This document shows, one piece after another, positions 5,400 to 62,577 of a stretch of DNA of 64,000 nt. This stretch comes from a virus (lineage: Duplodnaviria > Heunggongvirae > Uroviricota > Caudoviricetes): positions 103,707-167,706 of IMG/VR virus record IMGVR_UViG_3300033146_002139, one strand, 5' to 3'. The notes beneath the pieces were generated by a model that ran no database searches, had not been told where the DNA came from, and saw nothing but the letters and a program-made list of their open reading frames with translations. Positions within the stretch are counted from its first letter, which is position 1. The number at the start of each line of letters is the position of its first letter. Both the position numbers and the translations under genes were made by a program.

Positions 5400-6704
5400 T
5401 TATTTAATTTTTCTTATTGATACTCCAACAGGAAACCTTGGAATACCGTTATCATCTCCGGTTTCAAAATACCTTATAGTGAGCATCTCACCTATAAAAG
5501 ATGCTGCCCTTTCAAAAAGGTCTTTTCTGTAGTTTCTAGCACCTTTTGGTTTGCAGTCAAATTCATATCCTTGCTTCGTGATACATCTCCAAACGACCGT
5601 ACCTATGTCGTTTCCATCTGCCTCTTTATATCCTATTATCTCAAACTCGTCATCTTCAAAATCTTTCTTTTTTAGTAAGTTTTCAGACCTTTTGTCGATT
5701 TCGTAAATGCCTTCCATATTTCTTATTATAGAACCTTCGTACCCTTCAAGGATAAGCTTTTTATGTATCTCGTCAACCTCTTCCCAATTCTGTGCAATAT
5801 AATTAGGAACTATTTCAAGGTATTCGCATTGGTCAACTATCTTTTTTGCTTCATTGTATCTTGTCATAAAAACTTCTGCAGAGACCTCAAATTTATCTAT
5901 TTTACCTTTAGGACATTTGCCTAGATAATCAATCCAAAATGAATCGTACACCATTAATTTTATTTTTAATTGGTCAGCAATTTTATCTGCTGTCATATTC
6001 TTTTCTCTGGCAACAATACTTGTTATCTCTTGGAAAGTAAGCTCGTGAGAATAAAGCTCTCCATCAAGCACTCTGTTTCTTGGTGCAAAATCCTCAACTT
6101 CTCTTTTAATATGGTCAAAAAGCTCAAATACTGTATTCTCTCTTGATTGCATTCTAGCTTTTATTTTTCTTTGTCCATTATTGTCAGGTATTCTTGTAAA
6201 GCTGTTTTTTACAGTACATCTTATCCCGTCTAATTTAGGTTGGACTACAACAGGGAATGTAATTTTTTCTTTTACAGGTTTTTTAGGTGATGTTGACTTG
6301 CCGATTTTTTTAGCAGTCTTTCTTATATCACTTTCTTTCTTTGCCAGCATAGGCAGTATAACTAATCTGTGTTCTGCTTCATAAGCGCTTATAAAATAAC
6401 CTACTTTCTTTTTCTTTTTCCACATTGATAAAGCCTGAGAAATAGCCTGTTCTTCTACTGTAGTCTCATTAGCTTTTCCAATATTTTTGCCGGATTTAAT
6501 AATCTTCCCTTTATCGATTGTTAATTTACCATCTACATAACCTCTATATGTCTTTATGACTATATTATAATTGTCGTTAAATGGATTCGGGTCGTTTATA
6601 TCTGCACCATCTTTAAGTATAGACTCAACTTTGATAGTGTTTTTCTGTATCTTGCCTGTACTAGCTTTTTTATAAAGGGATGGCATTTCTTTTATAATGC
6701 TCAT
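5400..6704 (-). CDS. ATP-dependent DNA ligase (with about 140-aa N-terminal extension)
   Basis: Motif I VVVQPKLDGIRCTV (KxDGxR), EGYEGSIIRNMEGIYE (motif IV) and LLKKKDFEDDEFEIIGY (motif V/KxK), consistent with a nucleotidyltransferase-superfamily ligase. Confidence 0.7.
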   Translation of the reverse strand: MSIIKEMPSLYKKASTGKIQKNTIKVESILKDGADINDPNPFNDNYNIVIKTYRGYVDGKLTIDKGKIIKSGKNIGKANETTVEEQAISQALSMWKKKKKVGYFISAYEAEHRLVILPMLAKKESDIRKTAKKIGKSTSPKKPVKEKITFPVVVQPKLDGIRCTVKNSFTRIPDNNGQRKIKARMQSRENTVFELFDHIKREVEDFAPRNRVLDGELYSHELTFQEITSIVAREKNMTADKIADQLKIKLMVYDSFWIDYLGKCPKGKIDKFEVSAEVFMTRYNEAKKIVDQCEYLEIVPNYIAQNWEEVDEIHKKLILEGYEGSIIRNMEGIYEIDKRSENLLKKKDFEDDEFEIIGYKEADGNDIGTVVWRCITKQGYEFDCKPKGARNYRKDLFERAASFIGEMLTIRYFETGDDNGIPRFPVGVSIRKIK

Positions 6705-6713
6705 ATTAATCTC

Positions 6714-8117
6714 CTAAAGTTTTTTTAATAGTAATTCACCTAGCAATTCTTTATCTGTACTCTTATATCTTTTTTCAAAAGACTCAGCAGGTTTTGTTGA
6801 GTAGGAAGATTCATTTATTGTTTTTGTAACTGCATCAATATATTTGCTAAACCTACCTTCAGTAGTATGGTAAAAGACTTTAGAGATGCTATTCTTTTTC
6901 AAAAGCTTTTCATATTTAAGTGCTAACGATGTGTCTATTGCAAATGAGATGTATTCAGTTTTATTTATAAACTCTACCCAATCTACGGTATATATTTTTT
7001 CTTTTATCTCGGAAGCTCTACCTGTATTTTTAAATCCCAATAGAAGCATTTTAGTACCGTATAGCTTTTTTTCCTCTATAAAGTTAATGACCTTTTTAAA
7101 TTCCGAAAGAGACTCTAATCCCATGACATAATGCAACGTGATATTATATAGATTCGGTCTGTGTTTTAAAATCTTCTCTATATCTGACACGGTGTTAATT
7201 GATATTCCAATACTTCCTGTTATATTAAACAGTCTATCTGCAAATGATGGGTATTTTAGCCAATCTGTTTCTCTTGTTGTAAAATTAGGTGTAATACCTT
7301 TTTCTCTTGTGTATTCTAAAATCTCTAATAGTCTAGGATGGTTAGTTGTTTCTCCGCCGCCAAAAGCTATTTCAAAAACACCTTTTTCTGCTAGTACATC
7401 AATAATATCATTTACATATAAAGTTTCTTTCCCATCAGGAGTTGAATTGTTATAGCAAAAAGAACAATTGTGTTCACATTTGTGCGATATTCTTAAGTCT
7501 ATTAAGTCAGGAGTTATGTTGTTGTTATTTTCTATGCTATCCATCTCTTCGAGTTTGTTAGAGTATCTGATTTTATTCCCGTAGTTTACATCAAACAGTG
7601 TCCATCCAAAAGATTCTTTCCTTATTTTGTAATAAGAACTTTCTCTCATTATAGGTTCGTATACGACTCCAATTTGGGGCCTAAATTTGTCATCGCAGTT
7701 ATCGTTTCCACCTTCAATGACAAGGTTTTCATTGTTTGCTATTGAATATGCAAATTCTTTAAAAAAATCTATAGCATATTCGCCATCTGCATATTTTGGC
7801 ACTTCAAATAAAGACTGATGGTCAACATAATCTCCGCTATCAAATTCAACATCAGGAAATGCTTTAGCAACTATGCGTTTTTTCTTTGACTTATCTTTTT
7901 CGTTATCTTCCCATCTACCTCCGATATTTGTCCATAATGTTGCAGCGAAGTATCTAAGTTTAGACTCTTTGCTTAAACAAAGGAAAGTATTCCATCCAAA
8001 TTCCCCGTCGCTATCATCATCATATAAGTCTTTTTTATTTTTCGCACTCACTTTTATTATAGAGTGACTGCTACTACTGTTTGTGGCAAATCCTCTTCTT
8101 ATATTTATAGCTTTCAT
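6714..8117 (-). CDS. radical SAM domain protein with about 200-aa N-terminal domain of unknown function
   Basis: CEHNCSFCYN (Cx3Cx2C) followed by FGGGETTNHP (glycine-rich SAM-binding region); 467 aa. Confidence 0.6.
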   Translation of the reverse strand: MKAINIRRGFATNSSSSHSIIKVSAKNKKDLYDDDSDGEFGWNTFLCLSKESKLRYFAATLWTNIGGRWEDNEKDKSKKKRIVAKAFPDVEFDSGDYVDHQSLFEVPKYADGEYAIDFFKEFAYSIANNENLVIEGGNDNCDDKFRPQIGVVYEPIMRESSYYKIRKESFGWTLFDVNYGNKIRYSNKLEEMDSIENNNNITPDLIDLRISHKCEHNCSFCYNNSTPDGKETLYVNDIIDVLAEKGVFEIAFGGGETTNHPRLLEILEYTREKGITPNFTTRETDWLKYPSFADRLFNITGSIGISINTVSDIEKILKHRPNLYNITLHYVMGLESLSEFKKVINFIEEKKLYGTKMLLLGFKNTGRASEIKEKIYTVDWVEFINKTEYISFAIDTSLALKYEKLLKKNSISKVFYHTTEGRFSKYIDAVTKTINESSYSTKPAESFEKRYKSTDKELLGELLLKKL

Positions 8118-10295: not shown

Positions 10296-11477
10296 TTAAA
10301 TCATTGAAATTTTAACCGGGTTAGCCACGAACCCTATATCGGATACAAAATTATCTCCGATTACTTTTCTTAAAATATTTGTTGCTCCGTTCCAGTCTGC
10401 ATTCACTAATTTATTGATACTTGACTGAAATAATCCTCGCTTAATTCTTTTACCTTTATACTTCTTGTGCTTACCTATCTTTTCAAGAGCTAAAGCATCA
10501 CATTTACTGGTATAGCTTTCTTCATTTCTTATCACTTTAATTCCAATTTCTTCTGATTTATACTCTAATTGCTGAATAAATCGCAAATAAGGGATGTTTA
10601 CAAAGTTTTGATTATTAACCTTACCAATGTTAGCATTTTGTTTCCAGCCTTGATTATAGCCAACTACAATATTTTTAATATCATTCTCCAAACAGTAGTT
10701 AATTATATATCTTGAGCTTTTATGCAGGTAATCATTAATCTTGTTGTTCCTTTTTAAAGTTAATCTGTTAATTCTATTAGATAATTGCTTATCGCCTACA
10801 AAACTCTGTAATTTAGCTTTCTTTTTATTGTAGTATTGATTTATGGATTTTAATGGTTTGCCATTACCAATTATAGGTTTTAAACCTGCATTGGTTGAAG
10901 TTGCAAATAAATTATTAACTCCTAAATCAAGACTGATGTATAAATCTTCGTTTAGATTTTCATAGGCTTTTACCTCCTTTTTGTAAACTATTTCAATAAT
11001 ATTATATCCAACTCTAGGAAGTATCCTAACTTGATTTACATTATTTACTTTAGTCTTTAATGGATTTATATTAGATTTTTTAGGAAACAATATAAATCCA
11101 TTTTTAAGTTTAACTTGCTGATTAGTAAAGATAATAATATTTTTACCGTTTTTATCTTTATACTTTGGTATTCTAGGTTTAGCTTTAAACTTCTTTGGAT
11201 TCTTAAAAAAAGCTTTTTCTGCTTTAATAAAAGACTTCCAGTTTTTAAATAAAACTTTAATTATTTGCTGAGATGTTTGAGCAAGTAAAGCTCTGTAATC
11301 GGACTGGTTCTCTTTAGCTAATTGAGTTGTTAAGGTATATTCTGACAATAAGTTACCATTACCTATAAACTCTTGACGAATTAAGTAATTACAGTAGTTG
11401 TATAAATTCTTGGATAAGAAATGTAAGCTATCCATATTTGAATTTTGTTTTACAATATGTCTCTCAACTCTTTGCAT
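10296..11477 (-). CDS. tnpB: TnpB-like protein (IS200/IS605 OrfB family), apparently lacking the RuvC-II Glu and the zinc finger
   Basis: N-terminal OrfB_IS605 region (QRVERHIV...LYNYCNYLIRQ), RuvC-I ISLDLGVNNLFAT and RuvC-III NADWNGATNIL are present. At the RuvC-II position it has NIVVGYNQGW where the paralogues have IIIETLDLK / LYFETLDIK / ISIEDLKIK. The C-terminus has a single Cys instead of CxxC..CxxC. Confidence 0.75.
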   Translation of the reverse strand: MQRVERHIVKQNSNMDSLHFLSKNLYNYCNYLIRQEFIGNGNLLSEYTLTTQLAKENQSDYRALLAQTSQQIIKVLFKNWKSFIKAEKAFFKNPKKFKAKPRIPKYKDKNGKNIIIFTNQQVKLKNGFILFPKKSNINPLKTKVNNVNQVRILPRVGYNIIEIVYKKEVKAYENLNEDLYISLDLGVNNLFATSTNAGLKPIIGNGKPLKSINQYYNKKKAKLQSFVGDKQLSNRINRLTLKRNNKINDYLHKSSRYIINYCLENDIKNIVVGYNQGWKQNANIGKVNNQNFVNIPYLRFIQQLEYKSEEIGIKVIRNEESYTSKCDALALEKIGKHKKYKGKRIKRGLFQSSINKLVNADWNGATNILRKVIGDNFVSDIGFVANPVKISMI

Positions 11478-15536: not shown

Positions 15537-16325
15537 CTACTCCACTATTAAATTAGTACCTTTAAGAGCAAAACCCTTAAATTCATCTGTTTGTGCTTTC
15601 TCAATCCATTCATTATCAACATTATCTCCGTAATGGATAAGTAACATTTTACTCTTAATTTTACTAGCCAATTTTTTTAGTCCGTTGTAGTGTGCATGAA
15701 CACCACTTTCAAATGGAGATGTTTCACAATCTTGAATTATTAAGTCAACATCATCATAAAGACCCATAAGCTGATTTGGAGCATGTTGAGAATCGGTAGT
15801 CATCAATACCTTACTATTCCCTGTGTCTACTACTAAACCATAAGAGTCCATATAATTAAAACCGTTTACAATATGAATCATTTGAGCCGGTGTGAATTTT
15901 ACACCATCTATCGTAAAACTATTGTTATCTTTTATAGAATTAGGTTCAAAGTAGGTATGTAGTGTAGCCTCTTTTTCTCCATTTTTCATTTGGTGGCTAG
16001 CTAAACTTCCGAGCCCACCTGATAAAGAATTGCTCCATAATGTTTTCATTACATTGTGATTTGCAAAAAGTTTTATTTTTTCTTTTGTTGGGTCAAAGTA
16101 TGTCATAAAAGCCATATATTCTAACCCTCCAATATGGTCTGCATGAGCGTGGCTAATATAAATCCAATCTATGTCTGATGGTGAAAGTCTATAATCAGCT
16201 AGACTAATTTTAGTATCAAATCCACAATCTATAAGACCTTTAGTCTTATCTGTTTCAACAAGTATTAATGTGTTGTTGAATATTAAAGAGCTCATGTTCC
16301 CTGAGCCTAAAAATGTTAATTTCAT
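15537..16325 (-). CDS. MBL-fold metallo-hydrolase
   Basis: ISHAHADHIGG (HxHxDH motif) plus downstream D and H residues; 262 aa. Confidence 0.7.
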   Translation of the reverse strand: MKLTFLGSGNMSSLIFNNTLILVETDKTKGLIDCGFDTKISLADYRLSPSDIDWIYISHAHADHIGGLEYMAFMTYFDPTKEKIKLFANHNVMKTLWSNSLSGGLGSLASHQMKNGEKEATLHTYFEPNSIKDNNSFTIDGVKFTPAQMIHIVNGFNYMDSYGLVVDTGNSKVLMTTDSQHAPNQLMGLYDDVDLIIQDCETSPFESGVHAHYNGLKKLASKIKSKMLLIHYGDNVDNEWIEKAQTDEFKGFALKGTNLIVE

Positions 16326-20642: not shown

Positions 20643-20753
20643 AAATTTACATAAATATAAACTTTTGAGTTTTACTGCTTCATCGTACTCGATTTCAATA
20701 TGATTCTCTCTACTCTCGTTGATTTTAATACTCCGCAGTCGTTAATTTCCTTA

Positions 20754-21896
20754 TTAGCCTAAGGTATTATATTTTACACAATTCTTAATATTGATACTTG
20801 CATTCAAATCTCTGTCCATTGAAAAACCACATTTGCAATTATATGTTCTATCTGTGAGCTTTAAGTCTCTTTTTATACTTCCACATTTAGAACAAGTTTT
20901 ACTACTTGGAAACCATTTGTCTATTATTCTTAGCTCAATATTATATTTTTTGCATTGTTGAGTAAGAAACTCTCTAAAATAATAAAACATTTGGTCTTTA
21001 ATTGCTTTTGATAAATGCTTATTTTTCAACATACTTTTAATTTTCAAATCTTCAATACTAATAAATTTTGGGTTTAGACTAACCAGTGAATTTACTACAA
21101 ATCTTACACATTCGACTCTAATATTGCTTAAGCGATAATGTAATCTTTGAACTCTTAATTTGTTTTTATATATGTTTCTGCTAGACTCTCCTTTTGTCTT
21201 AGTTTTAAATTTACGACTTAATTGTCGCTGTGATTTTTTTAATTTCTTTTCTAATCTTTTTATTTTCTTAGTTTTGTTTATATTTTTAAAGAATTCACCC
21301 TCACTTGTAACCGCAAATTCTTTAATTCCTAAATCGATTCCGATAGCTTTAGTTTTCTTTTTTGGATTCATCTTTTTGGATTCTTCCTCAACTAAAACAC
21401 TTACAAAGTATCTATCAGCTATTCGAGATACAGTTCCGGACTTAACTTTAGAATTTAAGGGAATATATCCAAATTCTTTTAATCTTACAAATCCTAATGT
21501 GGGGATTTTAATTCTATGTCTTTCTAAAGTCCAATCATTTTTATTGTTCTTAGGTAGGTACATCTTGACTTTGCTATCTTTCTTTTTAAATCTTGGAAAT
21601 TTAGACTGTTTTTTAAAAAACTTCTTAAATGCCTTTTCTCCATTGAAAATAGACTGCTTTACAGATTTACTACTAACTTCTTTTATCCAGGAAAATTCCT
21701 TGTTAAATAATAGAAAATTATTATTAAGCCACTTGCTGAAGCTCATTGCAGATACAAATCTTTGTTCTTTTTCGTAAATCTCTTTATTGTATTTCAAGTA
21801 AAAATTATAAATAAATCTACAAGTCCCAAGAGTTTTATGCACTTTTTCTTTCTGCTTATCGTTTAGCTTTATTTCTATTTTATAGGATTTTAGCAT
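20754..21896 (-). CDS. tnpB: TnpB (OrfB, RuvC-like RNA-guided nuclease family)
   Basis: OrfB N-terminal domain, RuvC-I IGIDLGIKEFAVT, RuvC-II ISIEDLKIKSM, CSKCGS...CKCGF zinc finger, and RuvC-III DRDLNASINI. Confidence 0.8.
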   Translation of the reverse strand: MLKSYKIEIKLNDKQKEKVHKTLGTCRFIYNFYLKYNKEIYEKEQRFVSAMSFSKWLNNNFLLFNKEFSWIKEVSSKSVKQSIFNGEKAFKKFFKKQSKFPRFKKKDSKVKMYLPKNNKNDWTLERHRIKIPTLGFVRLKEFGYIPLNSKVKSGTVSRIADRYFVSVLVEEESKKMNPKKKTKAIGIDLGIKEFAVTSEGEFFKNINKTKKIKRLEKKLKKSQRQLSRKFKTKTKGESSRNIYKNKLRVQRLHYRLSNIRVECVRFVVNSLVSLNPKFISIEDLKIKSMLKNKHLSKAIKDQMFYYFREFLTQQCKKYNIELRIIDKWFPSSKTCSKCGSIKRDLKLTDRTYNCKCGFSMDRDLNASINIKNCVKYNTLG

Positions 21897-28476: not shown

Positions 28477-28832
28477 TGAAGAGGTATACGGAAGTAACAA
28501 AAGAACAACTGATAAACAAATCAGACGAAGAAATAAAAGCTTTAGCTTACCTAGAGATGGCACATGAGGGAGTTAACTTAGACGATGAAGATACGCTTTC
28601 TAACATTATAAGAAAAATAAAAGCATCGCAGTCAGAAGCAAAAGCCCATAGTAACAGATATGTTGACATTGAGGATGTTTTTAAAAGATATCTTGTTATA
28701 GCCGAGGGAAATATTACTATTGCTAAAGATTTTTTTAGCAAAGCATATAAAAACCACAAAAACTACAAAGACTTAAAAGAACATATCTATAAAAACACAG
28801 AAAAAATCAAAAACTCTACAAAGGAGAAGTAA
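28476..28832 (+). CDS. hypothetical protein
   Basis: 118 aa; ATGA-coupled. Confidence 0.5.
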   Translation: MKRYTEVTKEQLINKSDEEIKALAYLEMAHEGVNLDDEDTLSNIIRKIKASQSEAKAHSNRYVDIEDVFKRYLVIAEGNITIAKDFFSKAYKNHKNYKDLKEHIYKNTEKIKNSTKEK

Positions 28833-38429: not shown

Positions 38430-38786
38430 TTGATTACTACTTTTAAGGGCTATGAGATGAAAAAATTATACAGATACTCGTATCAAATCGACCACTCTAA
38501 CTTTTTCACTTTAGCTGTTGATGTGAAATTTATAAAAGAAGAATATTTTGTTTTAAAAGAAACAGAAAAATCATACATTATAAACTATGGATTCAGACAG
38601 AAGGTTGTAAGAAAAAAAGGAATAAATCTATTTGCTTTTGATACAGAAGAAAAAGCATTTTACAATTTTACCAATAGAAAAAAAAGTCAGCAAGAACATT
38701 TAAAAGCTAAACTTGCAGTAATAAATACTGTTGTTGAAAAGATAGATAAAGAGGGTTTTGATGGACAAAACAAATTTAGGAAATAG
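38430..38786 (+). CDS. hypothetical protein
   Basis: Preceded by TTGACA-17-TACATT at 38402-38430; an alternative start at ATG 38456 (MKKLYRY). Confidence 0.45.
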   Translation: MITTFKGYEMKKLYRYSYQIDHSNFFTLAVDVKFIKEEYFVLKETEKSYIINYGFRQKVVRKKGINLFAFDTEEKAFYNFTNRKKSQQEHLKAKLAVINTVVEKIDKEGFDGQNKFRK

Positions 38787-39576
38787 AATAAAAGACTATG
38801 AGGCGATAGAAAAAAAGAAGCTTTTTTCGCAAATTCCAATAGTAATTAGATTGGATGGTAAAAATTTTTCAAGATTTACAAAAGGAATGGAAAGACCATT
38901 TGACTTAAAGTTTAAAGAGATGATGCAAAAAACAACTAAATTCTTAGTTGACTATACAAATGCGAAAATAGGATACACACAGTCAGATGAAATATCGTTA
39001 GTGTTGTATTCTGATAACCACAAAAGACAAGTTTTTTTAGACGGAAAGAAGGATAAAATAAATTCTTTAATTGCTTCAAAATGCTCTGTGTTTTTCAATT
39101 CTTTACTTGAGGATTATTTTCCAGAAAGAAAAAGCTTGTTACCTATATTTGATTGTAGAAGTTTTAATGTTCCAACACTAGAAGAAGGGGTAAATGCAAT
39201 TCTATGGAGAGAATTAGATGCTACAAAAAACAGCATATCTATGTTAGCTCGACATCACTTTTCTCATAAACATCTACATGGGGTGCATACAGGAGATATG
39301 CTTGATATGCTTTACAGTATTGGAATCAATTGGAATGAACTAGAGACAAGCCTTAAAAGAGGGACTTATTACCAAAGAGTAAAAAGGCTAACCAAATTCA
39401 CTACATCTGAAATAGAAAAACTTCCCCCTAACCACGATGCTCTAACAAATCCAAACTTAATGATAGAAAGAAGTCTTGTCGAGAAGCTTGAGATGCCGAT
39501 AATAACAAAAGTTACAAACCAAACTAATGTGTTTTTTTACGGAGCTTTACCCAAAATAGAACTAAAGGATGTATAG
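38758..39576 (+). CDS. Thg1-like protein (tRNA-His guanylyltransferase family 3'-5' nucleotidyltransferase)
   Basis: IPIVIRLDGKNFSRF and KIGYTQSDEISLVL (the conserved SDE), plus a C-terminal NSISMLARHHFS region. Confidence 0.75.
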   Translation: MMDKTNLGNRIKDYEAIEKKKLFSQIPIVIRLDGKNFSRFTKGMERPFDLKFKEMMQKTTKFLVDYTNAKIGYTQSDEISLVLYSDNHKRQVFLDGKKDKINSLIASKCSVFFNSLLEDYFPERKSLLPIFDCRSFNVPTLEEGVNAILWRELDATKNSISMLARHHFSHKHLHGVHTGDMLDMLYSIGINWNELETSLKRGTYYQRVKRLTKFTTSEIEKLPPNHDALTNPNLMIERSLVEKLEMPIITKVTNQTNVFFYGALPKIELKDV

Positions 39577-49523: not shown

Positions 49524-49652
49524 ATGTCAAGAACTGAAACAATAATAATTAGACTAACAAAAGAAGAGAAGTCTAATATTGAAAGAAAAGCTAAAGAGCA
49601 AGGATTGTCGGTCTCATCTTACCTAAGAAGCTTAGGGATGAGAGATAAATAA
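49524..49652 (+). CDS. ribbon-helix-helix (MobC/CopG-like) mini-protein coupled to tnpB
   Basis: Translated by hand: MSRTETIIIRLTKEEKSNIERKAKEQGLSVSSYLRSLGMRDK; AAGGAG RBS; the stop TAA overlaps the tnpB ATG. Confidence 0.6.
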   Translation: MSRTETIIIRLTKEEKSNIERKAKEQGLSVSSYLRSLGMRDK

Positions 49653-50746
49653 TGATTAAAAAGCTTAACAAAGCATATAAATTTAGATTATATCCAAATG
49701 CGACACAGCAAGAGTATTTTGCAAAGACATTTGGAAGTGCTAGGTTTATCTACAATAAAATGTTAAGCGATAAAATTGATTATTATAAGCTAGAGAAGAA
49801 AACCTTAAACAATACTCCTGCTCAATATAAAAAAGAGTTTGAGTGGTTGAAAGAAGTGGATTCATTAGCTTTAGCAAATAGTCAAATGCAATTAAAAACT
49901 GCATTTATGAATTTTTTCAAAAGAAAAGGTGTTGGATTTCCTAATTTCAAAAGTAGAAGAAATAAAAAGTCATATAAAACTAATAATCTTAATGGTACAA
50001 TTAAAGTTGAATTAAATAATGTAAAACTGCCAAAGATAGGTTTTGTTAAAGCAGTAACACATCGTAGAGTTGAAGGTAAAATAAAAAGTGCAACAATATC
50101 TCAAACTCCAACTGGCAAATATTTTGTATCAATTTTAGTTGAATATGAAAAAGAGATAAAGGAAGTAAAAAGTAATAAAGTAATAGGATTAGATTTTTCA
50201 ATGAAAGATTTATATGTAAGTAGTGATAATGAGAAAGCCAATCAGCATCATTATTTTAGAAAATCTTTAGATAAAATCAAATTTGCTCAACGAAGTTTAT
50301 CAAGAAAAGTAAAAGGAAGTAGTAATCGTAACAAACAAAGACTTAGATTAGCTAAAGTTCACGAGAAAGTTAGCAACCAAAGAAACGACTTTTTGCATAA
50401 AACATCTACTTATTTATCAAAGAAATACGATGCTATAATAATTGAAACTCTTGATTTGAAAGAGATGAGCAAACACTTGAAGCTTGGAAAATCAGTACAC
50501 GATAATTCTTGGGCTACATTTGCAGCATTATTAAAATACAAATCAGAGCAATCAGGAAAGCAGTTAGTTCAAATTGATAAGTGGTTTCCAAGTAGCAAAA
50601 AATGTTCTAATTGTGGAAATGTAAAAGAGAAGTTAGAGTTGTCAGAACGAACATACAATTGTGGAAGCTGTAATCTTAGTATTGATAGGGATTACAATGC
50701 TTCATTAAATATTAAAATGGCTGGGACAGTCAAGTTAGCTTGGTAA
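49652..50746 (+). CDS. tnpB: TnpB (OrfB, RuvC-like RNA-guided nuclease family)
   Basis: RuvC-I IGLDFSMKDLYVSS, RuvC-II AIIIETLDLKEM, zinc finger CSNCGN...CGSCN, RuvC-III DRDYNASLNI. Confidence 0.8.
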   Translation: MIKKLNKAYKFRLYPNATQQEYFAKTFGSARFIYNKMLSDKIDYYKLEKKTLNNTPAQYKKEFEWLKEVDSLALANSQMQLKTAFMNFFKRKGVGFPNFKSRRNKKSYKTNNLNGTIKVELNNVKLPKIGFVKAVTHRRVEGKIKSATISQTPTGKYFVSILVEYEKEIKEVKSNKVIGLDFSMKDLYVSSDNEKANQHHYFRKSLDKIKFAQRSLSRKVKGSSNRNKQRLRLAKVHEKVSNQRNDFLHKTSTYLSKKYDAIIIETLDLKEMSKHLKLGKSVHDNSWATFAALLKYKSEQSGKQLVQIDKWFPSSKKCSNCGNVKEKLELSERTYNCGSCNLSIDRDYNASLNIKMAGTVKLAW

Positions 50747-51185: not shown

Positions 51186-51314
51186 ATGAAACGAACTGAA
51201 ACAATAATAATTAGGTTAACAAAAGAAGAAAAAGCTAATATTGAAAGAAAAGCTAAAGAGCAAGGTTTGTCTTTATCGTCTTATTTAAGAAGTTTAGGGA
51301 TGAAAGATAAATAG
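51186..51314 (+). CDS. ribbon-helix-helix mini-protein coupled to tnpB (paralogue of the 49524 copy)
   Basis: MKRTETIIIRLTKEEKANIERKAKEQGLSLSSYLRSLGMKDK. A TTGACT promoter-like element lies at 51131. The stop TAG overlaps the GTG start of tnpB. Confidence 0.6.
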   Translation: MKRTETIIIRLTKEEKANIERKAKEQGLSLSSYLRSLGMKDK

Positions 51315-52432
51315 TGAAAACCTATAAATATAAAATATACAATAGTAAAAAGAATAAGAAATTATGCCAAAAGATTAATATTGCTGGTGTGGTTTTTAAT
51401 TATTGTATTGCTCTTCAAAGAGGTTATTATAGGTTTTATGGTAAACAATTAAATATTTATCAACTACAAAAACACTTAACTAAAAAGAAAAAATTAAATA
51501 AGTATTTCTTTTGGAAAGAACTAAGCTCTCAAACTATTCAAGATATAACCGAGCGAATAGATAAATCGTATAAACAGTTTTACCGTAATTTAAAAAAGGG
51601 AGTTAAAACAAGCCCTCCTAAATTCAAAAAAGTTAAGAAATACAAATCTATAACTTTCAAGAATACTGGATATAAATTCGATGGTAATAAAATTGCAATA
51701 CAAAAAGATTTATTTAAGTTTTCAAATAGTAGAAAGTTTCAGGGGAATATTAAACGAGTAATAGTAAAGCGAAACAATCTAGGAATGATGTTTTTATATG
51801 TAATAACAGATTTTGTCGATATTCGAGCAATCAAGTCAGTTAAAAGTGCTGGTTGCGATTTTGGATTAAAACAATTTTTGTCGTTTTCAGATAAAAGCAC
51901 GATTGATTCACCTTTATTTTTCAAAAAGAATTTAAAGAAAGTAAAAAGATTATCTAAAAAATTTTCCAAGAAAAAGAAAGGTAGTAACAACAGGAAACGA
52001 GCAAAATATAATCTTGGCAAGTTAAACTATAAAATAATGAATAAAAGAACAGATTTTCATTATAAACTAGCAAAAGATTTAGCGATAGACTATGGTATTT
52101 TATACTTTGAAACACTGGATATTAAATCAATGCAGAGACGATGGGGAAGGAAAATAAATGACTTAGGATTTTATAATTTTCTTCAAATACTAAAACAACA
52201 AGGATTAAAATACGGTTGCGAAGTAGTCCAAATTGATAAGTGGTTTCCAAGTAGTAAAACTTGCTCAGGTTGTGGTTATATAAAGAAAGACTTAACTCTA
52301 AAAGATAGAGCGTATAACTGTCCTGAATGTAAATTATCAATCGACCGAGATTTGAATGCATCAATAAATATAAAACGAGAAGGGGTATCTTCTCTTAAAA
52401 CCAAGACAGTAAAACTTTCGAGTATGTCTTAA
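51314..52432 (+). CDS. tnpB: TnpB (OrfB family), GTG start
   Basis: RuvC-I AGCDFGLKQFLSFS, RuvC-II ILYFETLDIKSM, zinc finger CSGCGY...CPECK, RuvC-III DRDLNASINI. Confidence 0.8.
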   Translation: MKTYKYKIYNSKKNKKLCQKINIAGVVFNYCIALQRGYYRFYGKQLNIYQLQKHLTKKKKLNKYFFWKELSSQTIQDITERIDKSYKQFYRNLKKGVKTSPPKFKKVKKYKSITFKNTGYKFDGNKIAIQKDLFKFSNSRKFQGNIKRVIVKRNNLGMMFLYVITDFVDIRAIKSVKSAGCDFGLKQFLSFSDKSTIDSPLFFKKNLKKVKRLSKKFSKKKKGSNNRKRAKYNLGKLNYKIMNKRTDFHYKLAKDLAIDYGILYFETLDIKSMQRRWGRKINDLGFYNFLQILKQQGLKYGCEVVQIDKWFPSSKTCSGCGYIKKDLTLKDRAYNCPECKLSIDRDLNASINIKREGVSSLKTKTVKLSSMS

Positions 52433-54724: not shown

Positions 54725-55569
54725 TGAAATTTATAGAAAAGAAAAAAATAAAATCTACTTTTGATATTGATTTTGTAAGTGAGATTAAAAAGCAAAAAGC
54801 AGAAGATAGGATGTATTGCGTTACAAAAAAAGCTGAAGGGCATCAAATATCATCGTATTACAATGGTGATGAGTTTAAATTCGCAGATAAAGACGGTTTT
54901 TCAAAAATGAATAGTATTCCAAAAACTACTTTATCAGAAATAATCGCATTCCATAAGTGGTTATGGGGGTTTTTTCGTGGCAGTGTTGAGGAGTTGGTAT
55001 TACACTCTACAATAAAAGATTCGTCTGTAAATGTGTTTGATATGTCAGTTGACGGCAAATATATTTCTATGCATGGATTTACAAAGGCGATAAGAAGATT
55101 AAACAGTACCAAAGAACATAAGAACATATCCTATACAAAAATTTTTTTGATAGGGATTATTGATGACTGCATAAAATATACAAAACAAGAACCCGGAACA
55201 GATTTTATTGTAAAGCTATATGAAACAGACATTGCTTTAAATAATGGAGAAAGAGTTATACTACAAAGTAAGCAAAACAAGAAAGAGACGGTCAAGAATT
55301 TAACTCCGATGCAAGACTTAACAGCATATAAGATATTTTTATCTATAACGGAAGATAATTTAAAAGCAGTTGTTTCAGGGATAAAAAAAATAAAAACAAA
55401 AAAAGTAACCGCAATATCAAAAGCTTTTGCAAAAAAAGTCATAACAGAATGGAAAGAAAATAACGATATGGGAGAGGATTTTAATATCGTATCTAAAGCA
55501 GTTTCTGAAAAATGCAAGGATTTGGTTAAAAAAAATTATGATGATATTATAGAGGGTATTTTCATATGA
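54724..55569 (+). CDS. hypothetical protein
   Basis: 281 aa. Confidence 0.5.
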   Translation: MKFIEKKKIKSTFDIDFVSEIKKQKAEDRMYCVTKKAEGHQISSYYNGDEFKFADKDGFSKMNSIPKTTLSEIIAFHKWLWGFFRGSVEELVLHSTIKDSSVNVFDMSVDGKYISMHGFTKAIRRLNSTKEHKNISYTKIFLIGIIDDCIKYTKQEPGTDFIVKLYETDIALNNGERVILQSKQNKKETVKNLTPMQDLTAYKIFLSITEDNLKAVVSGIKKIKTKKVTAISKAFAKKVITEWKENNDMGEDFNIVSKAVSEKCKDLVKKNYDDIIEGIFI

Positions 55570-55772
55570 GCCTAGAAAGATTTAAAAAGAAAGTAGACTA
55601 TATATACGACAATAATAAAAGATGGAGGAAAGGGCAAGCTTTATTCAATATCCTTTATATTGAGTATCCTGATTTTGCAGATGAGATAAGGGGTACTATT
55701 TTCGACCCTTTTTATGACAACAATGCTATAGACAAGTGCTATATGAAGATGGAAAAAGATAAAATAATATAA
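55566..55772 (+). CDS. hypothetical protein
   Basis: 68 aa. Confidence 0.45.
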   Translation: MSLERFKKKVDYIYDNNKRWRKGQALFNILYIEYPDFADEIRGTIFDPFYDNNAIDKCYMKMEKDKII

Positions 55773-55781
55773 TAATCATTT

Positions 55782-55860
55782 GGGGATGGATTGGTTTCGA
55801 TTGGATGTAAAGCTTACAAGAGCAAATCTCAAGACAGCGGTTCGAATCCGCTCATCTCCA
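55782..55860 (+). tRNA. 79-nt tRNA-like / tmRNA tRNA-like-domain-like element (perfect acceptor + T-arm, non-canonical D/anticodon region)
   Basis: GGGGATG...AGCGG-TTCGAAT-CCGCT-CATCTCC-A gives a 7-bp acceptor stem and a canonical T-arm. The 5' end GGGGAUGGAUUGGUUUCGAUUGG resembles the tmRNA 5' end GGGGCUGAUUCUGGAUUCGACGGG. I could not find a 5-7-5 anticodon arm. Confidence 0.4.
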
Positions 55861-56097
55861 TCAATAGAGGCGAGAATGAAAGAAAGTGTGTTAATTAAGA
55901 GCAAGCCAAATTACTATGCAATAGAATACAGGAAAGGGACGGTGCTTTTGCAAAGAAAAGTGGTCGAGTGCGGGACAGACCCTGCAATATCAACTGAAGA
56001 AGAGGTTATTTTATATTTATGTAAAAAAATCGAAGAGTTAGAATGTAAAACAGGAGACAAAAAGTGAAGAATATATTTTGTTCAAAAAAGGAAATGT

Positions 56098-56589
56098 TTG
56101 ATGATAGAAATCATAGAAATCATAGATGAATTAGGCAAAAAAGAACAAGCAAGGATAACAATCGATGAAAGCGTAAAACAATACATGTCTCTTCCATATA
56201 CTACAATGACAATCCCAGAAGATGATGGGTCTATTTTTATCAAAATAAAAGAATTACCTGGATGTATGAGTGTTGGTAAAGACATTTCTGATGCATACGA
56301 GATGATTAAAGAAGCTATGGAAGGATGGCTTGAGGCCGCAATGATATCGGGATATGAAATTTTATTACCAGATGGAGTGAGTCCGGGAGACAAAAATAAA
56401 GATACATATGTGTACCAACTTGTATACACCGACTCTCCAAGAACAGGATGGGCAGTACTTAGCGTACACAGTACAATTTCAGGAGCATATAAGGCTTTAA
56501 ACGAAAGTAAGCTAGAAACTTACAATAGTCAAGGCATAATACATGAGGATGAAGATTGGATTGTAAAAAGAGTAAAACTTGAGGATTAG
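56098..56589 (+). CDS. hypothetical protein
   Basis: 163 aa. Confidence 0.5.
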   Translation: MMIEIIEIIDELGKKEQARITIDESVKQYMSLPYTTMTIPEDDGSIFIKIKELPGCMSVGKDISDAYEMIKEAMEGWLEAAMISGYEILLPDGVSPGDKNKDTYVYQLVYTDSPRTGWAVLSVHSTISGAYKALNESKLETYNSQGIIHEDEDWIVKRVKLED

Positions 56590-61377: not shown

Positions 61378-62577
61378 TTATCCTTTTATAACCATTAATG
61401 GTGTTAGTTTATGCTCTATACTAACTAAGTCTTTTTGCTCTTCCATTACTATATCTATTGACTTGTAAGCTGAAGGAGCTTCGTCTAAATCATCTACAGT
61501 ATTTATAGAATGTATAATGCCTTGGGAATCAAGAATTTTTTTCTCGGAATCAATATCTAAATCTTCTTTAGCCTTGGTCCTGCTCATCTTTCTTCCAGCT
61601 CCATGACTTGCTGAGTTAAAAGAATCTTTATTTCCTAGACCCTTTACTATATAAGAAGACGTTCCCATTGACCCAGGAATTACACCGATTTCGCCTTTTC
61701 TTGCAGAGATAGCGCCTTTTCTATGCACCATAACATTTTTACCAAAGTGATTCTCAATTCTAGCATAGTTATGTTTTACGTCTATTAACCCAGAAAGGCT
61801 AAAATTGTATTTTTCGCTAAGGATGTTTTTAAAGCTTAGCATTATATTTTTCATCATTAGCAATCTATTTTCTCTTGCATATTCCACACAGTATTCCATT
61901 TCTCTTATATAGGACATTCCTACAGCAGAGTGTATAGGTAAAAATGCAAGGTCTAATTTTGGATTTACTACAGAATAATACTGTTCATTTACCTCTTTCG
62001 CCATTGCGTTGTAAGCCTTAGCAATTTGATAGCCTAAGTTTCGGCTTCCACTATGAATCATCACCCAAATAAAGTTATCTTTATCTTTTTGAATTTCGCA
62101 AAAATGATTCCCAGAGCCGAGGGTTCCTAGAGAATTTATTGCGTTATTATAGTGGTCTTCTAGTACGGGGCAATCTCCTTGAAGAGGAATTGATTCCATA
62201 ATATGTTTTCTTTCAGCATTTTCTAGTTGGTGCCTACTAAACCCTGTCGGTATTACTTTTTCTATCTCTGCCTTTATAAGTAAAAGTTTCTCCTTACTAA
62301 CTTCGTCGGTTTTCCATTTAGTCTTCAGTGCTGCGACTCCACACCCAATATCTACTCCGATTGCGTTTACAATTACTACATCTTCAGTAGCTAACACTCC
62401 TCCAATGGGCATCCCATATCCCTGGTGAACATCGGGCATTAATGCTATATGCTTGAAAGCAAAAGGTAAGTTTGCCAAATTAACTGCTTGGTCAATAGCT
62501 CCTTGTTCAGGATTGTCGCACCAAGACTTAATGTGCAGACGAATTGCATCTCCGCCAATATCATTTATATACAACAT
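61378..62577 (-). CDS. rtcB: RtcB-family RNA ligase (3'-phosphate/5'-OH RNA-splicing ligase)
   Basis: LMPDVHQGYGMPIGGV, GSGNHFCEIQ, HSGSRNLG, NYARIENHFG, PGSMGTSSYIV and SASHGAGRKMSR are all RtcB metal/GMP-site motifs. Confidence 0.8.
   Translation of the reverse strand: MLYINDIGGDAIRLHIKSWCDNPEQGAIDQAVNLANLPFAFKHIALMPDVHQGYGMPIGGVLATEDVVIVNAIGVDIGCGVAALKTKWKTDEVSKEKLLLIKAEIEKVIPTGFSRHQLENAERKHIMESIPLQGDCPVLEDHYNNAINSLGTLGSGNHFCEIQKDKDNFIWVMIHSGSRNLGYQIAKAYNAMAKEVNEQYYSVVNPKLDLAFLPIHSAVGMSYIREMEYCVEYARENRLLMMKNIMLSFKNILSEKYNFSLSGLIDVKHNYARIENHFGKNVMVHRKGAISARKGEIGVIPGSMGTSSYIVKGLGNKDSFNSASHGAGRKMSRTKAKEDLDIDSEKKILDSQGIIHSINTVDDLDEAPSAYKSIDIVMEEQKDLVSIEHKLTPLMVIKG

What the first reader, a model, noticed from the sequence alone, without database searches (positions are those of the whole stretch)
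55782..55860. 79-nt tRNA-sized element with tmRNA-like 5' end, perfect acceptor stem and T-arm but no recognisable anticodon arm
GGGGATG pairs with CATCTCC (7 bp, one G-U) and is followed by discriminator A. A flawless T-arm AGCGG-TTCGAAT-CCGCT precedes it. The 5' portion GGGGAUGGAUUGGUUUCGAUUGG is strikingly similar to the start of bacterial tmRNA (GGGGCUGAUUCUGGAUUCGACGGG). The 47 nt between the acceptor and T-arm do not form a 5-7-5 anticodon hairpin that I can find. It may be a minimal tRNA-like domain, an unusual tRNA, or a degenerate tRNA. The ORF-track protein 55780-56067 overlaps it and is probably not real. The phage also encodes Thg1-like and RtcB tRNA-end-repair enzymes, so a non-canonical tRNA-like RNA here is worth a look.
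Basis: seen in the sequence. Interest (0 to 1): 0.55.

Follow-up and report, generated by a model that had tools for sequence, protein, structure and literature searches.

The report
Phage tmRNA reduced to tRNA-like domain
This phage carries an 80-base gene for the tRNA-like end of bacterial tmRNA with the protein-tagging message removed; one phage example was already known, but relatives turn out to be common in uncultured phages and probably interfere with how the host deals with stalled ribosomes.

Summary
Window 55782-55860 (+), plus a UCA trailer to 55863, matches Rfam tmRNA (RF00023) end to end. It scores 54.2 bits against a threshold of 47, with E = 1.6e-18. The 312 model positions for the message and pseudoknots are replaced by 21 nt. 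ARAGORN finds no tRNA or tmRNA here.

The RNA has these parts:
- a 7-bp acceptor stem with G3·U70 and discriminator A, which are the alanine identity elements;
- an unpaired D-loop analogue;
- helix 2;
- a small inner hairpin;
- a canonical T-arm.

It has no anticodon arm, no tag reading frame and no encoded CCA.

It has the same architecture as the published "TLD only" tmRNA of Mycobacterium phage DS6A. My family model scores DS6A at 59.1 bits.

I collected 236 unique relatives, forming 151 clusters at 85% identity. Almost all come from viral or metagenomic contigs, and only 9 stretches come from 185,579 species genomes. Helix 2 covaries strongly. The alanine identity set stays near-invariant even where the search did not impose it.

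The most likely function is an alanine-charged, SmpB-dependent competitor or substitute for host tmRNA that supplies no tag. Verdict: a new member of a known but barely catalogued kind.

The parts
55782..55788 (+). Acceptor stem, 5' strand (GGGGAUG). G3 is the G of the G3·U70 pair.
   Evidence: Read from the sequence. Aligned to RF00023 positions 1-7. Family acceptor statistics.
55789..55800 (+). D-loop analogue with no stem (GAUUGGUUUCGA). It contains the conserved GG and UUCGA of tmRNA.
   Evidence: RF00023 alignment. This part of the family alignment A2 was largely fixed by my search pattern.
55801..55806 (+). Helix 2, 5' strand (UUGGAU).
   Evidence: RNAfold of the interior. Family covariation at alignment columns 20-26/59-65, which the search pattern did not specify.
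55807..55811 (+). A-rich internal loop (GUAAA).
   Evidence: The 5' unpaired segment is about 4 nt and 61% A across the family.
55812..55823 (+). Inner hairpin GCUU-ACAA-GAGC, which caps helix 2 in place of the whole mRNA-like domain and pseudoknots.
   Evidence: A comparable 3-4 bp hairpin with a 4-nt loop is predicted in 104 of 144 long-form family representatives.
55824..55825 (+). Unpaired AA between the inner hairpin and the 3' strand of helix 2.
55826..55832 (+). Helix 2, 3' strand (AUCUCAA), with U at 55829 bulged.
   Evidence: The closing pair U20-A51 is the covarying alternative to the usual C-G pair.
55833..55835 (+). GAC linker before the T-arm. Its A is invariant in all 77 aligned family members although the pattern did not impose it.
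55836..55852 (+). T-arm: AGCGG / UUCGAAU / CCGCU (5 bp, 7-nt T-loop).
   Evidence: The three outer T-stem pairs covary across the family.
55853..55859 (+). Acceptor stem, 3' strand (CAUCUCC). U at 55857 is U70.
55860..55860 (+). Discriminator A73.
   Evidence: The discriminator is A in 235 of 236 unique family sequences.
55861..55863 (+). 3' trailer UCA. CCA is not encoded, so it would have to be added after 3' processing.
   Evidence: CCA is encoded in only 35 of 77 family members.
55780..55875 (+). 5' extension of the mechanical ORF 55780-56067 that overlaps the RNA. It is probably not coding. A 63-aa ORF from ATG 55876, with AGAGG at 55866-55870, is the plausible gene.
   Evidence: The 63-aa ORF has no Pfam or PHROG match. 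The start assignment is an inference from the start codon and the ribosome-binding-site-like motif.

Best explanation

Shown by computation:
- It has an acceptor stem with G3·U70 and A73.
- It has a stemless D-loop analogue, helix 2 closed by a small hairpin, and a T-arm.
- It has no message, no pseudoknots, no anticodon arm and no encoded CCA.

Inferred:
- It is transcribed with the surrounding plus-strand genes.
- RNase P cuts out its 5' end, and a host 3' processing enzyme followed by the CCA-adding enzyme finishes the 3' end.
- Host AlaRS charges it with alanine, and host SmpB and EF-Tu bind it.
- It enters the empty A site of ribosomes stalled at the end of broken mRNAs.
- Because it carries no resume codon or tag, it diverts SmpB and stalled ribosomes away from host tmRNA. 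The host's degradation tagging (trans-translation) is then inhibited or bypassed during infection.
For: Identity:
- RF00023 matches end to end at 54.2 bits (threshold 47), with 312 model positions replaced by 21 nt.
- My family model R1 scores the window copy at 71.5 bits and the published DS6A TLD at 59.1 bits. The two share the layout, including the A-rich loop and the CCGC..GCGG-type inner hairpin.

A real, selected RNA:
- In 77 aligned relatives, 96.2% of pair cells are paired, against 67.5% in shuffles.
- The covariation score is 0.71 against 0.14, reached by 0 of 500 shuffles. Slid controls give 0.07-0.12.
- All 7 helix-2 pairs show double changes, although the search pattern left helix 2 unspecified.

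Charging is under selection. In 80 unique sequences found without specifying the acceptor:
- G1:C72 is kept in 79, G2:C71 in 79, G3·U70 in 78 and A73 in 79.
- Pairs 4-6 vary freely.
- G3·U70 plus A73 is the AlaRS identity set (PMC3968760).

tRNA-like processing: many relatives sit inside same-strand phage tRNA arrays.

Viral distribution: the first pattern found 104 stretches in IMG/VR against 9 in 596 Gb of species genomes, and all 9 are on MAG contigs.

Dependence on the host:
- No SmpB was found in the window or in the flanks of 104 loci.
- No tRNA or full tmRNA was found in the window.

Mechanism precedent: a DS6A-like TLD expressed in E. coli strongly inhibits tmRNA, perhaps by titrating SmpB (Mao et al. 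2009, as reported in PMC4131195 and PMC11915505).
Against: - No expression, processing, charging or SmpB-binding data exist for this RNA or this phage.
- The host is unknown, and the phage has no close cultured relative.
- In the reported E. coli experiment, inhibition did not need a chargeable molecule. The strict conservation of the alanine identity set therefore points to a function beyond simple SmpB titration and fits the rival of tag-free rescue at least as well.
- Helix 2 of the window copy is weaker than is typical for the family. It has 4 uninterrupted pairs, then a bulge and 2 more, against a typical 7-8.
- The single-sequence MFE does not form the T-arm.
- No promoter or terminator was detected next to the element.
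- Only 64 kb of a contig of at least 168 kb was examined, so an smpB gene or a full tmRNA could lie elsewhere.
Confidence: 0.55

Rival explanations
1. Tag-free ribosome rescue or alanine tailing. This is the same molecule with the same partners, but its role is productive. Ala-TLD·SmpB accepts the nascent chain on non-stop ribosomes, possibly for several rounds. The product is then released by ArfA/RF2, ArfB or drop-off followed by peptidyl-tRNA hydrolase. The phage gains cheap extra rescue capacity when host or phage nucleases create many broken mRNAs, and phage proteins are not marked with the full degradation tag.
For: - The AlaRS identity set is near-invariant where it was not imposed. This is expected if the alanine is actually donated.
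- A TLD fragment with SmpB supports template-free polyalanine synthesis in vitro (Shimizu and Ueda 2006, as reported in PMC3929946).
- Mitochondrial and some plastid tmRNAs also lack a tag frame yet are conserved together with SmpB (PMC11915505).
- The window encodes other RNA-damage countermeasures: RtcB, a Thg1-like protein and a HicB-like antitoxin.
Against: - The only reported in vivo test of a similar molecule showed inhibition of tmRNA function, not rescue.
- Without a stop codon, release needs another factor, and whether this host has one is unknown.
- About half of the family has a UAA, UAG or UGA at the start of the inner loop, but the rest have NAA. A built-in stop codon is therefore not the conserved feature.
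Confidence: 0.3
2. tRNA-like processing or other non-ribosomal role. The fold serves mainly as an RNase P and 3'-processing site that cuts the polycistronic transcript. Alternatively, the alanyl-RNA or the RNA itself serves another enzyme, such as the phage RtcB or Thg1-like repair enzymes or an aminoacyl-tRNA-dependent transferase.
For: - It lies in a 103-nt gap between same-strand ORFs with no detectable promoter or terminator of its own.
- RtcB co-occurs with a TLD-only tmRNA in both DS6A and this phage.
- E. coli ssrA is the most frequent RtcB ligation target (PMC9650030).
Against: - A processing signal would not need G3·U70, A73, the tmRNA-specific D-loop analogue or helix 2, yet all are conserved.
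- No RtcB lies in 915 kb of flanks around 104 relatives.
- No neighbouring protein family is shared by more than 9 of 78 groups.
Confidence: 0.07
3. Non-functional remnant. The element is a decayed tmRNA gene, or a piece of host ssrA picked up by imprecise excision or carried as an attachment site.
For: - Phages commonly integrate into ssrA and carry its 3' part.
- One unrelated viral contig (L357) carries only a tmRNA-like 3' end with the same CAUCUCCAUCA terminus.
- The window copy has a bulged helix 2 and no CCA.
Against: - Both halves are present in the standard order, and the whole interior is precisely absent.
- The element scores above Rfam's curated threshold.
- 236 unique relatives in 151 clusters keep the fold through compensatory changes.
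- The nearest relative is only 77% identical yet has the same structure.
Confidence: 0.05
4. An unusual tRNA that decodes a codon.
For: Its size is tRNA-like, and it has an acceptor stem and T-arm. ARAGORN mis-calls a few relatives as odd 80-90-nt tRNAs.
Against: - ARAGORN finds no tRNA in the window.
- There is no D-stem and no 5-7-5 anticodon hairpin.
- The best Rfam family is tmRNA rather than tRNA within the same clan.
Confidence: 0.02

Closest known systems
TLD-only tmRNA of Mycobacterium phage DS6A (tmRNA Website 'Phage__Mycobacterium.9'; Mao et al. 2009; PMC4131195; PMC11915505)
   Same: - It is phage-encoded, has the standard (non-permuted) order and is about 80 nt.
- It has an acceptor stem with G3·U70 and A73, a stemless D-loop analogue and a T-arm.
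- Helix 2 is closed by an A-rich loop and a short hairpin.
- It has no tag frame and no pseudoknots.
- One covariance model detects both copies.
- Both phages also encode an RtcB ligase.
   Different: - The window copy is far diverged from every relative I collected. The nearest is 77% identical, and BLAST with the DS6A copy finds only DS6A records among 50,697 phage records.
- The window phage is about 32% GC and has no cultured relatives. DS6A is a 60.6-kb temperate actinophage, and its copy is 70% GC.
- The window copy passes Rfam's tmRNA threshold, while the DS6A copy does not.
- Helix 2 is shorter and bulged in the window copy.
Standard bacterial tmRNA (SsrA, Rfam RF00023)
   Same: The whole tRNA-like domain is shared: acceptor stem, G3·U70, A73, the GG..UUCGA D-loop analogue, the start of helix 2, the GAC linker and the T-arm. 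The match to the model runs end to end (compare E. coli ssrA).
   Different: The element lacks the mRNA-like domain (resume codon, tag frame, stop codon), helix 5 and all four pseudoknots. That is 312 of 374 model positions. It therefore cannot perform the message half of trans-translation.
CDS-less organellar tmRNAs (jakobid and oomycete mitochondria, Rfam RF02544; about 65-bp Mallomonadaceae plastid forms)
   Same: They are reduced to little more than the tRNA-like domain with no tag reading frame, and they are presumed to work with SmpB (PMC11915505).
   Different: The mitochondrial genes are usually circularly permuted and are inherited vertically in organelles, with a nucleus-encoded SmpB. 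The present family is in the standard order, is viral, and has no linked smpB.
Synthetic TLD fragments used in structural and in vitro studies (for example PDB 2CZJ; Shimizu and Ueda 2006)
   Same: They comprise the acceptor stem, D-loop analogue, a short helix 2 capped by a loop, and the T-arm. They bind SmpB, are delivered by EF-Tu, accept peptide and support template-free polyalanine synthesis (PMC3929946). The 63-68-nt short forms in the family look like natural versions of these constructs.
   Different: They are engineered rather than natural. Most natural copies, including this one, also carry the A-rich loop and inner hairpin, whose role is unknown.

Membership tests
tmRNA (Rfam RF00023) | Score at or above the curated gathering threshold of the family covariance model | tested here: met
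   54.2 bits against a threshold of 47. E = 1.6e-18 over the window. Model positions 1-374 are matched end to end.
tmRNA (Rfam RF00023) | Acceptor stem formed by the 5' and 3' ends, with the G3·U70 wobble pair and discriminator A (AlaRS identity) | tested here: met
   GGGGAUG pairs with CAUCUCC over 7 bp, with G3·U70 and A73. The identity rule is stated in PMC3968760.
tmRNA (Rfam RF00023) | T stem-loop plus a reduced D-loop without a stem that can interact with it | tested here: met
   The T-arm has 5 bp and the loop UUCGAAU. The 12-nt unpaired GAUUGGUUUCGA aligns to the model's D-loop analogue. The tertiary D/T-loop contact itself cannot be tested here.
tmRNA (Rfam RF00023) | Helix 2 joining the segment after the D-loop analogue to the segment before the T-arm | tested here: met
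   The window copy has 6 bp with one bulge. All 7 family helix-2 pairs show compensatory changes.
tmRNA (Rfam RF00023) | mRNA-like domain: resume codon, tag reading frame and in-frame stop codon | tested here: not met
   Only 19 nt lie between the helix-2 strands, and 312 model positions are replaced by 21 nt. The first loop triplet across the family is not consistently a stop codon.
tmRNA (Rfam RF00023) | Pseudoknots PK1-PK4 | tested here: not met
   They are absent, because there is no sequence to form them.
tmRNA (Rfam RF00023) | Alanylation by AlaRS, and binding by SmpB and EF-Tu | not testable with these tools
tmRNA (Rfam RF00023) | A partner smpB gene in the same genome | tested here: not met
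   No SmpB appears among the Pfam matches of 72 window ORFs. E. coli SmpB finds nothing in the six-frame translation of the window or in the flanks of 104 loci. Only 64 kb of a contig of at least 168 kb was examined. A phage copy is expected to use the host's SmpB.
TLD-only phage tmRNA (DS6A type) | A complete tRNA-like domain in the standard order, about 63-100 nt in all, with helix 2 closed by a short loop or hairpin and no coding part | tested here: met
   The window copy is 79 nt up to the discriminator.
TLD-only phage tmRNA (DS6A type) | Detected by one structure-and-sequence model together with the published DS6A element | tested here: met
   Model R1 scores the window copy at 71.5 bits (this copy was in the training set) and DS6A 28478-28557 at 59.1 bits (not in the training set).
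TLD-only phage tmRNA (DS6A type) | Encoded by a phage | tested here: met
   The window carries phage replication and lysis genes and matches only phage proteins distantly. The family is almost confined to viral and metagenomic contigs.
TLD-only phage tmRNA (DS6A type) | Inhibits host tmRNA function when expressed | not testable with these tools
   This was reported for a similar molecule in E. coli (Mao et al. 2009, via PMC4131195 and PMC11915505). It has not been tested for this RNA.
tRNA | Cloverleaf with a D-arm and an anticodon arm | tested here: not met
   ARAGORN finds no gene in the window. Within the shared Rfam clan, tmRNA is the best-scoring family.
Permuted (two-piece) tmRNA (RF04321) | The acceptor 3' piece precedes the 5' piece in the gene | tested here: not met
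   The order is standard. RF04321 scores 16.9 bits against a threshold of 47, and only over the T-arm and 3' end.

The most novel reading that the evidence does not exclude
TLD-only tmRNAs are not a one-off oddity of phage DS6A. They would be a large, almost exclusively viral RNA class, with at least 151 sequence clusters found here. Phages would use them as an alanine-charged hijacker of SmpB and of stalled ribosomes.

The class would block degradation tagging, or replace it with template-free alanine addition. This would serve as a counter-measure to host defences and toxins that cut mRNA.

The conserved A-rich loop and inner hairpin, which synthetic TLDs lack, would be a functional addition, for example a second SmpB or ribosome contact.
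Probability: 0.35. Interest if true: 0.75.

Novelty: new member of a known kind. Interest (0 to 1): 0.55.

Why it matters
Trans-translation by tmRNA and SmpB is the main ribosome-rescue and quality-control pathway of bacteria. The curated tmRNA database lists only 9 standard-form sequences without a coding part among 97,179, and one of them is from a phage.

This window adds a second, unrelated phage carrying such a gene. Following it up shows that the form is common and diverse in uncultured phages and is kept under selection for alanine charging. ARAGORN misses it, and GenBank leaves even the DS6A copy unannotated.

If these RNAs inhibit or re-route trans-translation, phages have a widespread 80-nt tool against a core host pathway. 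That would bear on phage-host conflict over mRNA-cleaving defences. It would also offer natural minimal substrates for studying the early steps of trans-translation.

Tried and rejected
- **ARAGORN** on the window found nothing. It does not recognise this form, and it mis-calls a few relatives as odd tRNAs.
- **Megablast** of 3 kb around the element against 50,697 phage records found no match. Distant BLAST of the 82 nt found only T-arm and acceptor pieces of tmRNA and tRNA-Ala genes.
- **Close relatives of this phage** could not be found, so conservation at the syntenic site could not be checked. A search of IMG/VR with the neighbouring 281-aa ORF found no relatives. The 5.8-billion-protein search returned only the ORF itself, on a 167,706-bp JGI contig. 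Exact look-ups were not on record. A metagenome scan with a window-specific pattern gave 0 hits.
- **Rfam at gathering threshold on DS6A** found nothing. My own model was needed to locate the published element.
- **RtcB linkage** was rejected as a general rule. No RtcB lies in the flanks of 104 loci.
- **A conserved protein partner** was rejected. The largest neighbour cluster covers 9 of 78 groups and consists of ordinary replication genes.
- **Phage-encoded SmpB** was not found.
- **A built-in stop codon (UAA) in the loop** was rejected. Only 37 of 71 aligned long forms have a stop triplet there, and the rest have NAA.
- **Two acceptor mismatches in a "GGGGUGG" subgroup** were an artefact of my pattern's register. 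The true 5' end lies one G upstream and the stem is perfect.
- **The 63-aa downstream ORF as a HicA toxin** partnering the HicB-like gene has no Pfam support.
- **A TATAAT at 55768-55773**, 8 nt upstream of G1, has no -35 element. The promoter scan did not call it, and such hexamers are common in a sequence that is about 68% A+T.
- **L357** carries only a tmRNA-like 3' end and is not a family member.

Full report
**1. The observation**

Window 55782-55860 reads GGGGAUGGAUUGGUUUCGAUUGGAUGUAAAGCUUACAAGAGCAAAUCUCAAGACAGCGGUUCGAAUCCGCUCAUCUCCA and is followed by UCA.

- The single G-U pair falls at position 3:70.
- ARAGORN reports no tRNA or tmRNA anywhere in the 64-kb window.
- Rfam's tmRNA model RF00023 matches 55782-55863 at 54.2 bits against a gathering score of 47. 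E is 1.6e-18 for the whole window.
- The match runs from model position 1 to 374. The 312 consensus positions that hold the message and the pseudoknots are replaced by 21 nt.
- The permuted-tmRNA model scores only 16.9 bits.

**2. Anatomy**

With G1 at 55782, the parts are as follows:

| Part | RNA positions | Note |
|---|---|---|
| Acceptor stem, 5' strand | 1-7 | GGGGAUG |
| D-loop analogue | 8-19 | unpaired GAUUGGUUUCGA |
| Helix 2, 5' strand | 20-25 | pairs with 45-51; 6 bp, U48 bulged |
| Internal loop | 26-30 | GUAAA |
| Inner hairpin | 31-42 | GCUU-ACAA-GAGC |
| Unpaired | 43-44 | AA |
| Helix 2, 3' strand | 45-51 | AUCUCAA |
| Linker | 52-54 | GAC |
| T-arm | 55-71 | 5 bp, 7-nt loop |
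| Acceptor stem, 3' strand | 72-78 | CAUCUCC |
| Discriminator | 79 | A |

- This fold has -20.4 kcal/mol against -23.3 for the nearest-neighbour MFE. The MFE keeps the acceptor stem but replaces the T-arm with a long-range pairing.
- For a tRNA-like RNA held together by tertiary contacts this gap is not informative, so the structure has to be judged by comparison with relatives.
- The element fills a 103-nt gap between ORF 55566-55772 and a plausible 63-aa ORF that starts at ATG 55876 behind AGAGG. All are on the plus strand.
- The mechanical ORF 55780-56067 overlaps the RNA only through a TTG-initiated 5' extension.
- No promoter-like or terminator-like site was called next to the element.

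**3. Relatives**

A pattern for a tmRNA 5' end and 3' end lying within about 80 nt of each other found the following:

- 104 stretches in IMG/VR;
- only 9 in one genome each of 185,579 bacterial and archaeal species (596 Gb), all on MAG contigs.

Two further patterns left the acceptor stem unspecified. They were anchored only on the D-loop analogue, the GAC linker and the T-loop, and they found more than 120 and 58 stretches in IMG/VR.

After requiring an acceptor stem of at least 6 of 7 pairs, the union is 236 unique sequences in 151 clusters at 85% identity. The sequences are 65-100 nt long, and most are 75-81 nt. The nearest to the window copy is 77% identical.

**4. Covariation**

These figures come from 77 aligned sequences:

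| Measure | Observed | Control |
|---|---|---|
| Pair cells forming standard pairs | 96.2% | 67.5% in shuffles |
| Covariation score | 0.71 | 0.14 in shuffles; 0 of 500 reach the observed value |
| Same score with 3' partners slid 1-3 columns | - | 0.07-0.12 |

- My pattern left helix 2 entirely unspecified, yet all seven of its pairs show changes on both sides.
- The A of the GAC linker is invariant, although the pattern did not impose it.
- Helix 2 usually has 7-8 uninterrupted pairs.
- 144 of 152 representatives are "long forms", with an A-rich stretch of about 4 nt followed by a hairpin. A simple hairpin, typically 3-4 bp with a 4-nt loop, is predicted in 104 of the 144.
- The remaining 8 are "short forms" in which helix 2 is capped directly.
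- The window copy is a long form.

**5. The published precedent**

- The tmRNA literature lists one phage tmRNA that is "TLD only", that of Mycobacterium phage DS6A (PMC4131195).
- The 2025 tmRNA database counts 9 "standard, no CDS" sequences among 97,179 (PMC11915505).
- Rfam at its gathering threshold does not detect the DS6A copy.
- My family model does, at DS6A 28478-28557 with 59.1 bits. That copy has the same layout, down to a GAAAACCGCACGCGGUAC inner loop and hairpin.
- The locus is unannotated in both DS6A records, and it has no BLAST-level relatives among 50,697 phage records.

The window element is therefore a new, distant member of a known kind. That kind is much larger than the papers I could search record. 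Five literature searches turned up no description of it beyond DS6A. Subscription journals are largely not covered by that library.

**6. What it needs from the host, and whether it is charged**

- G3·U70 with A73 is the AlaRS identity set and is conserved in all tmRNAs (PMC3968760).
- My first pattern fixed these positions, so I examined the 80 unique sequences that do not match it.
- In those 80, G1:C72 is kept in 79, G2:C71 in 79, G3·U70 in 78 and A73 in 79.
- Pairs 4, 5 and 6 each take four to six different standard pair types.
- This is strong evidence that alanine charging, or at least AlaRS recognition, is selected.
- CCA is encoded in only 35 of 77 copies and is not encoded in the window copy, which has UCA. 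Many copies must therefore rely on CCA addition.
- 32 of the 104 loci carry tRNA genes, and in several of them the element lies inside a same-strand phage tRNA array, sometimes 6 nt from the next tRNA. This fits tRNA-type processing.
- No SmpB homologue is found in the window or in 915 kb of flanks.
- No neighbouring protein family is shared by more than 9 of 78 groups.
- The RNA thus travels alone and must use host factors.

**7. Mechanism**

Shown: the RNA has every sequence determinant of the tRNA half of tmRNA and none of the message half.

Inferred: after processing and CCA addition it is alanylated, bound by SmpB and EF-Tu, and delivered to ribosomes stalled on non-stop mRNAs. Two outcomes are possible.

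- *(a) Inhibition.* It competes with host tmRNA for SmpB and for stalled ribosomes, and so inhibits tagging. This has the only in vivo precedent. A similar molecule strongly inhibited tmRNA in E. coli, reportedly whether or not it could be charged.
- *(b) Tag-free rescue.* It acts as a rescue or alanine-tailing factor without a tag. This is supported by template-free polyalanine synthesis by TLD·SmpB in vitro (PMC3929946) and by the existence of CDS-less organellar tmRNAs.

The near-invariance of the alanine identity set argues that the natural molecules act in charged form on the ribosome, which both versions allow. I rank (a) first at 0.55 and (b) second at 0.30. A built-in stop codon in the loop is not supported.

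**8. Context in the window**

- The window is part of a phage contig of at least 168 kb with about 32% G+C. Its closest cultured relatives share at most 37% protein identity in a helicase.
- It encodes RtcB (61378-62577, -), which is 36% identical to DS6A gp76, and a Thg1-like protein (38758-39576, +).
- It also encodes an Apyc1-like protein, a PARP-like protein and four TnpB copies.
- A HicB-like antitoxin gene lies 238 nt downstream of the RNA.
- E. coli ssrA is the most frequent RtcB ligation substrate (PMC9650030), so the pairing of RtcB with a TLD in two unrelated phages is worth following.
- There is no local linkage across the family, however, so it remains only a lead.

**9. Verdict**

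- The element is not a new kind of RNA, because DS6A set the precedent in 2009.
- It is a distant new member of that kind. Chasing it revealed a large, diverse, almost purely viral family that standard annotation tools miss and that is under selection for alanine charging.
- Interest is moderate, at 0.55. It would be higher if the family proves to be a general phage device against trans-translation.

Noticed in passing
window 20672-20739 (-) and ORF 20754-21896 (-): A RAGATH-18 RNA (RF03064; 57.4 bits against a threshold of 44.9) lies 15 nt downstream of a TnpB-type ORF that has HTH_OrfB_IS605, OrfB_IS605 and Cas12f1-like TNB domains. The position suggests it is the guide-RNA scaffold of that TnpB. 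The other three TnpB copies in the window (10296-11477 -, 49652-50746 +, 51314-52432 +) have no such hit at the gathering threshold.
   Followed up: partly
window 56098-56589 (+): A HicB-like antitoxin-domain ORF (Pfam HicB_lk_antitox, phrog_497) lies 238 nt downstream of the mini-tmRNA. The 63-aa ORF just upstream of it (55876-56067) shows no HicA match. From my own knowledge, HicA toxins cut mRNAs and tmRNA, so the two neighbours might serve the same conflict. This was not tested.
   Followed up: no
window 61378-62577 (-), 38758-39576 (+); DS6A (L106) 301-1503: Both phages now known to carry a TLD-only tmRNA and available as long sequence (this one and DS6A) also encode an RtcB ligase, and the two proteins are 36% identical. 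No RtcB lies within the roughly 9-kb flanks of 104 other carriers, so whole-genome co-occurrence remains untested.
   Followed up: partly
window 15537-16325 (-) and other ORFs: The window carries an Apyc1-like (anti-Pycsar) metallo-beta-lactamase-fold ORF. A PARP catalytic-domain ORF, a radical-SAM ORF (6714-8117 -), an ATP-dependent DNA ligase (5400-6704 -), C5 and N6 DNA methyltransferases and a LAGLIDADG endonuclease are also present. This is an unusually rich set of counter-defence and repair genes.
   Followed up: no
L012 1329-10147; L029 6-5413; L072 185-4750; L046; L079: In several IMG/VR contigs the mini-tmRNA is the first or last gene of a same-strand array of 10-28 phage tRNA genes, sometimes only 6 nt from the next tRNA.
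   Followed up: partly
L009, L010, L020, L035, L043, L089 (63-66 nt): A short-form subgroup has helix 2 capped directly by a 3-4-nt loop, like the synthetic TLD constructs used for crystallography. ARAGORN mis-calls L020 as an odd 80-90-nt tRNA (also L027, which carries the same sequence, and the 68-nt L036).
   Followed up: partly
L357 1094-1192: A 142-kb viral contig carries a tmRNA-like 3' end (GAC, T-arm, CAUCUCCA then UCA) that is identical over its last 11 nt to the window element. It has no matching 5' acceptor strand nearby. The interior contains GCA GAA AAG UCA ACG ACG UAA, which reads like a short tag frame. It could be an attachment-site fragment or a different reduced tmRNA form.
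   Followed up: no
L105 (DS6A) 28478-28557: The published DS6A TLD-only tmRNA is not annotated in either the GenBank or the RefSeq record, and it falls below Rfam's tmRNA gathering threshold. Standard pipelines would therefore miss this class.
   Followed up: yes
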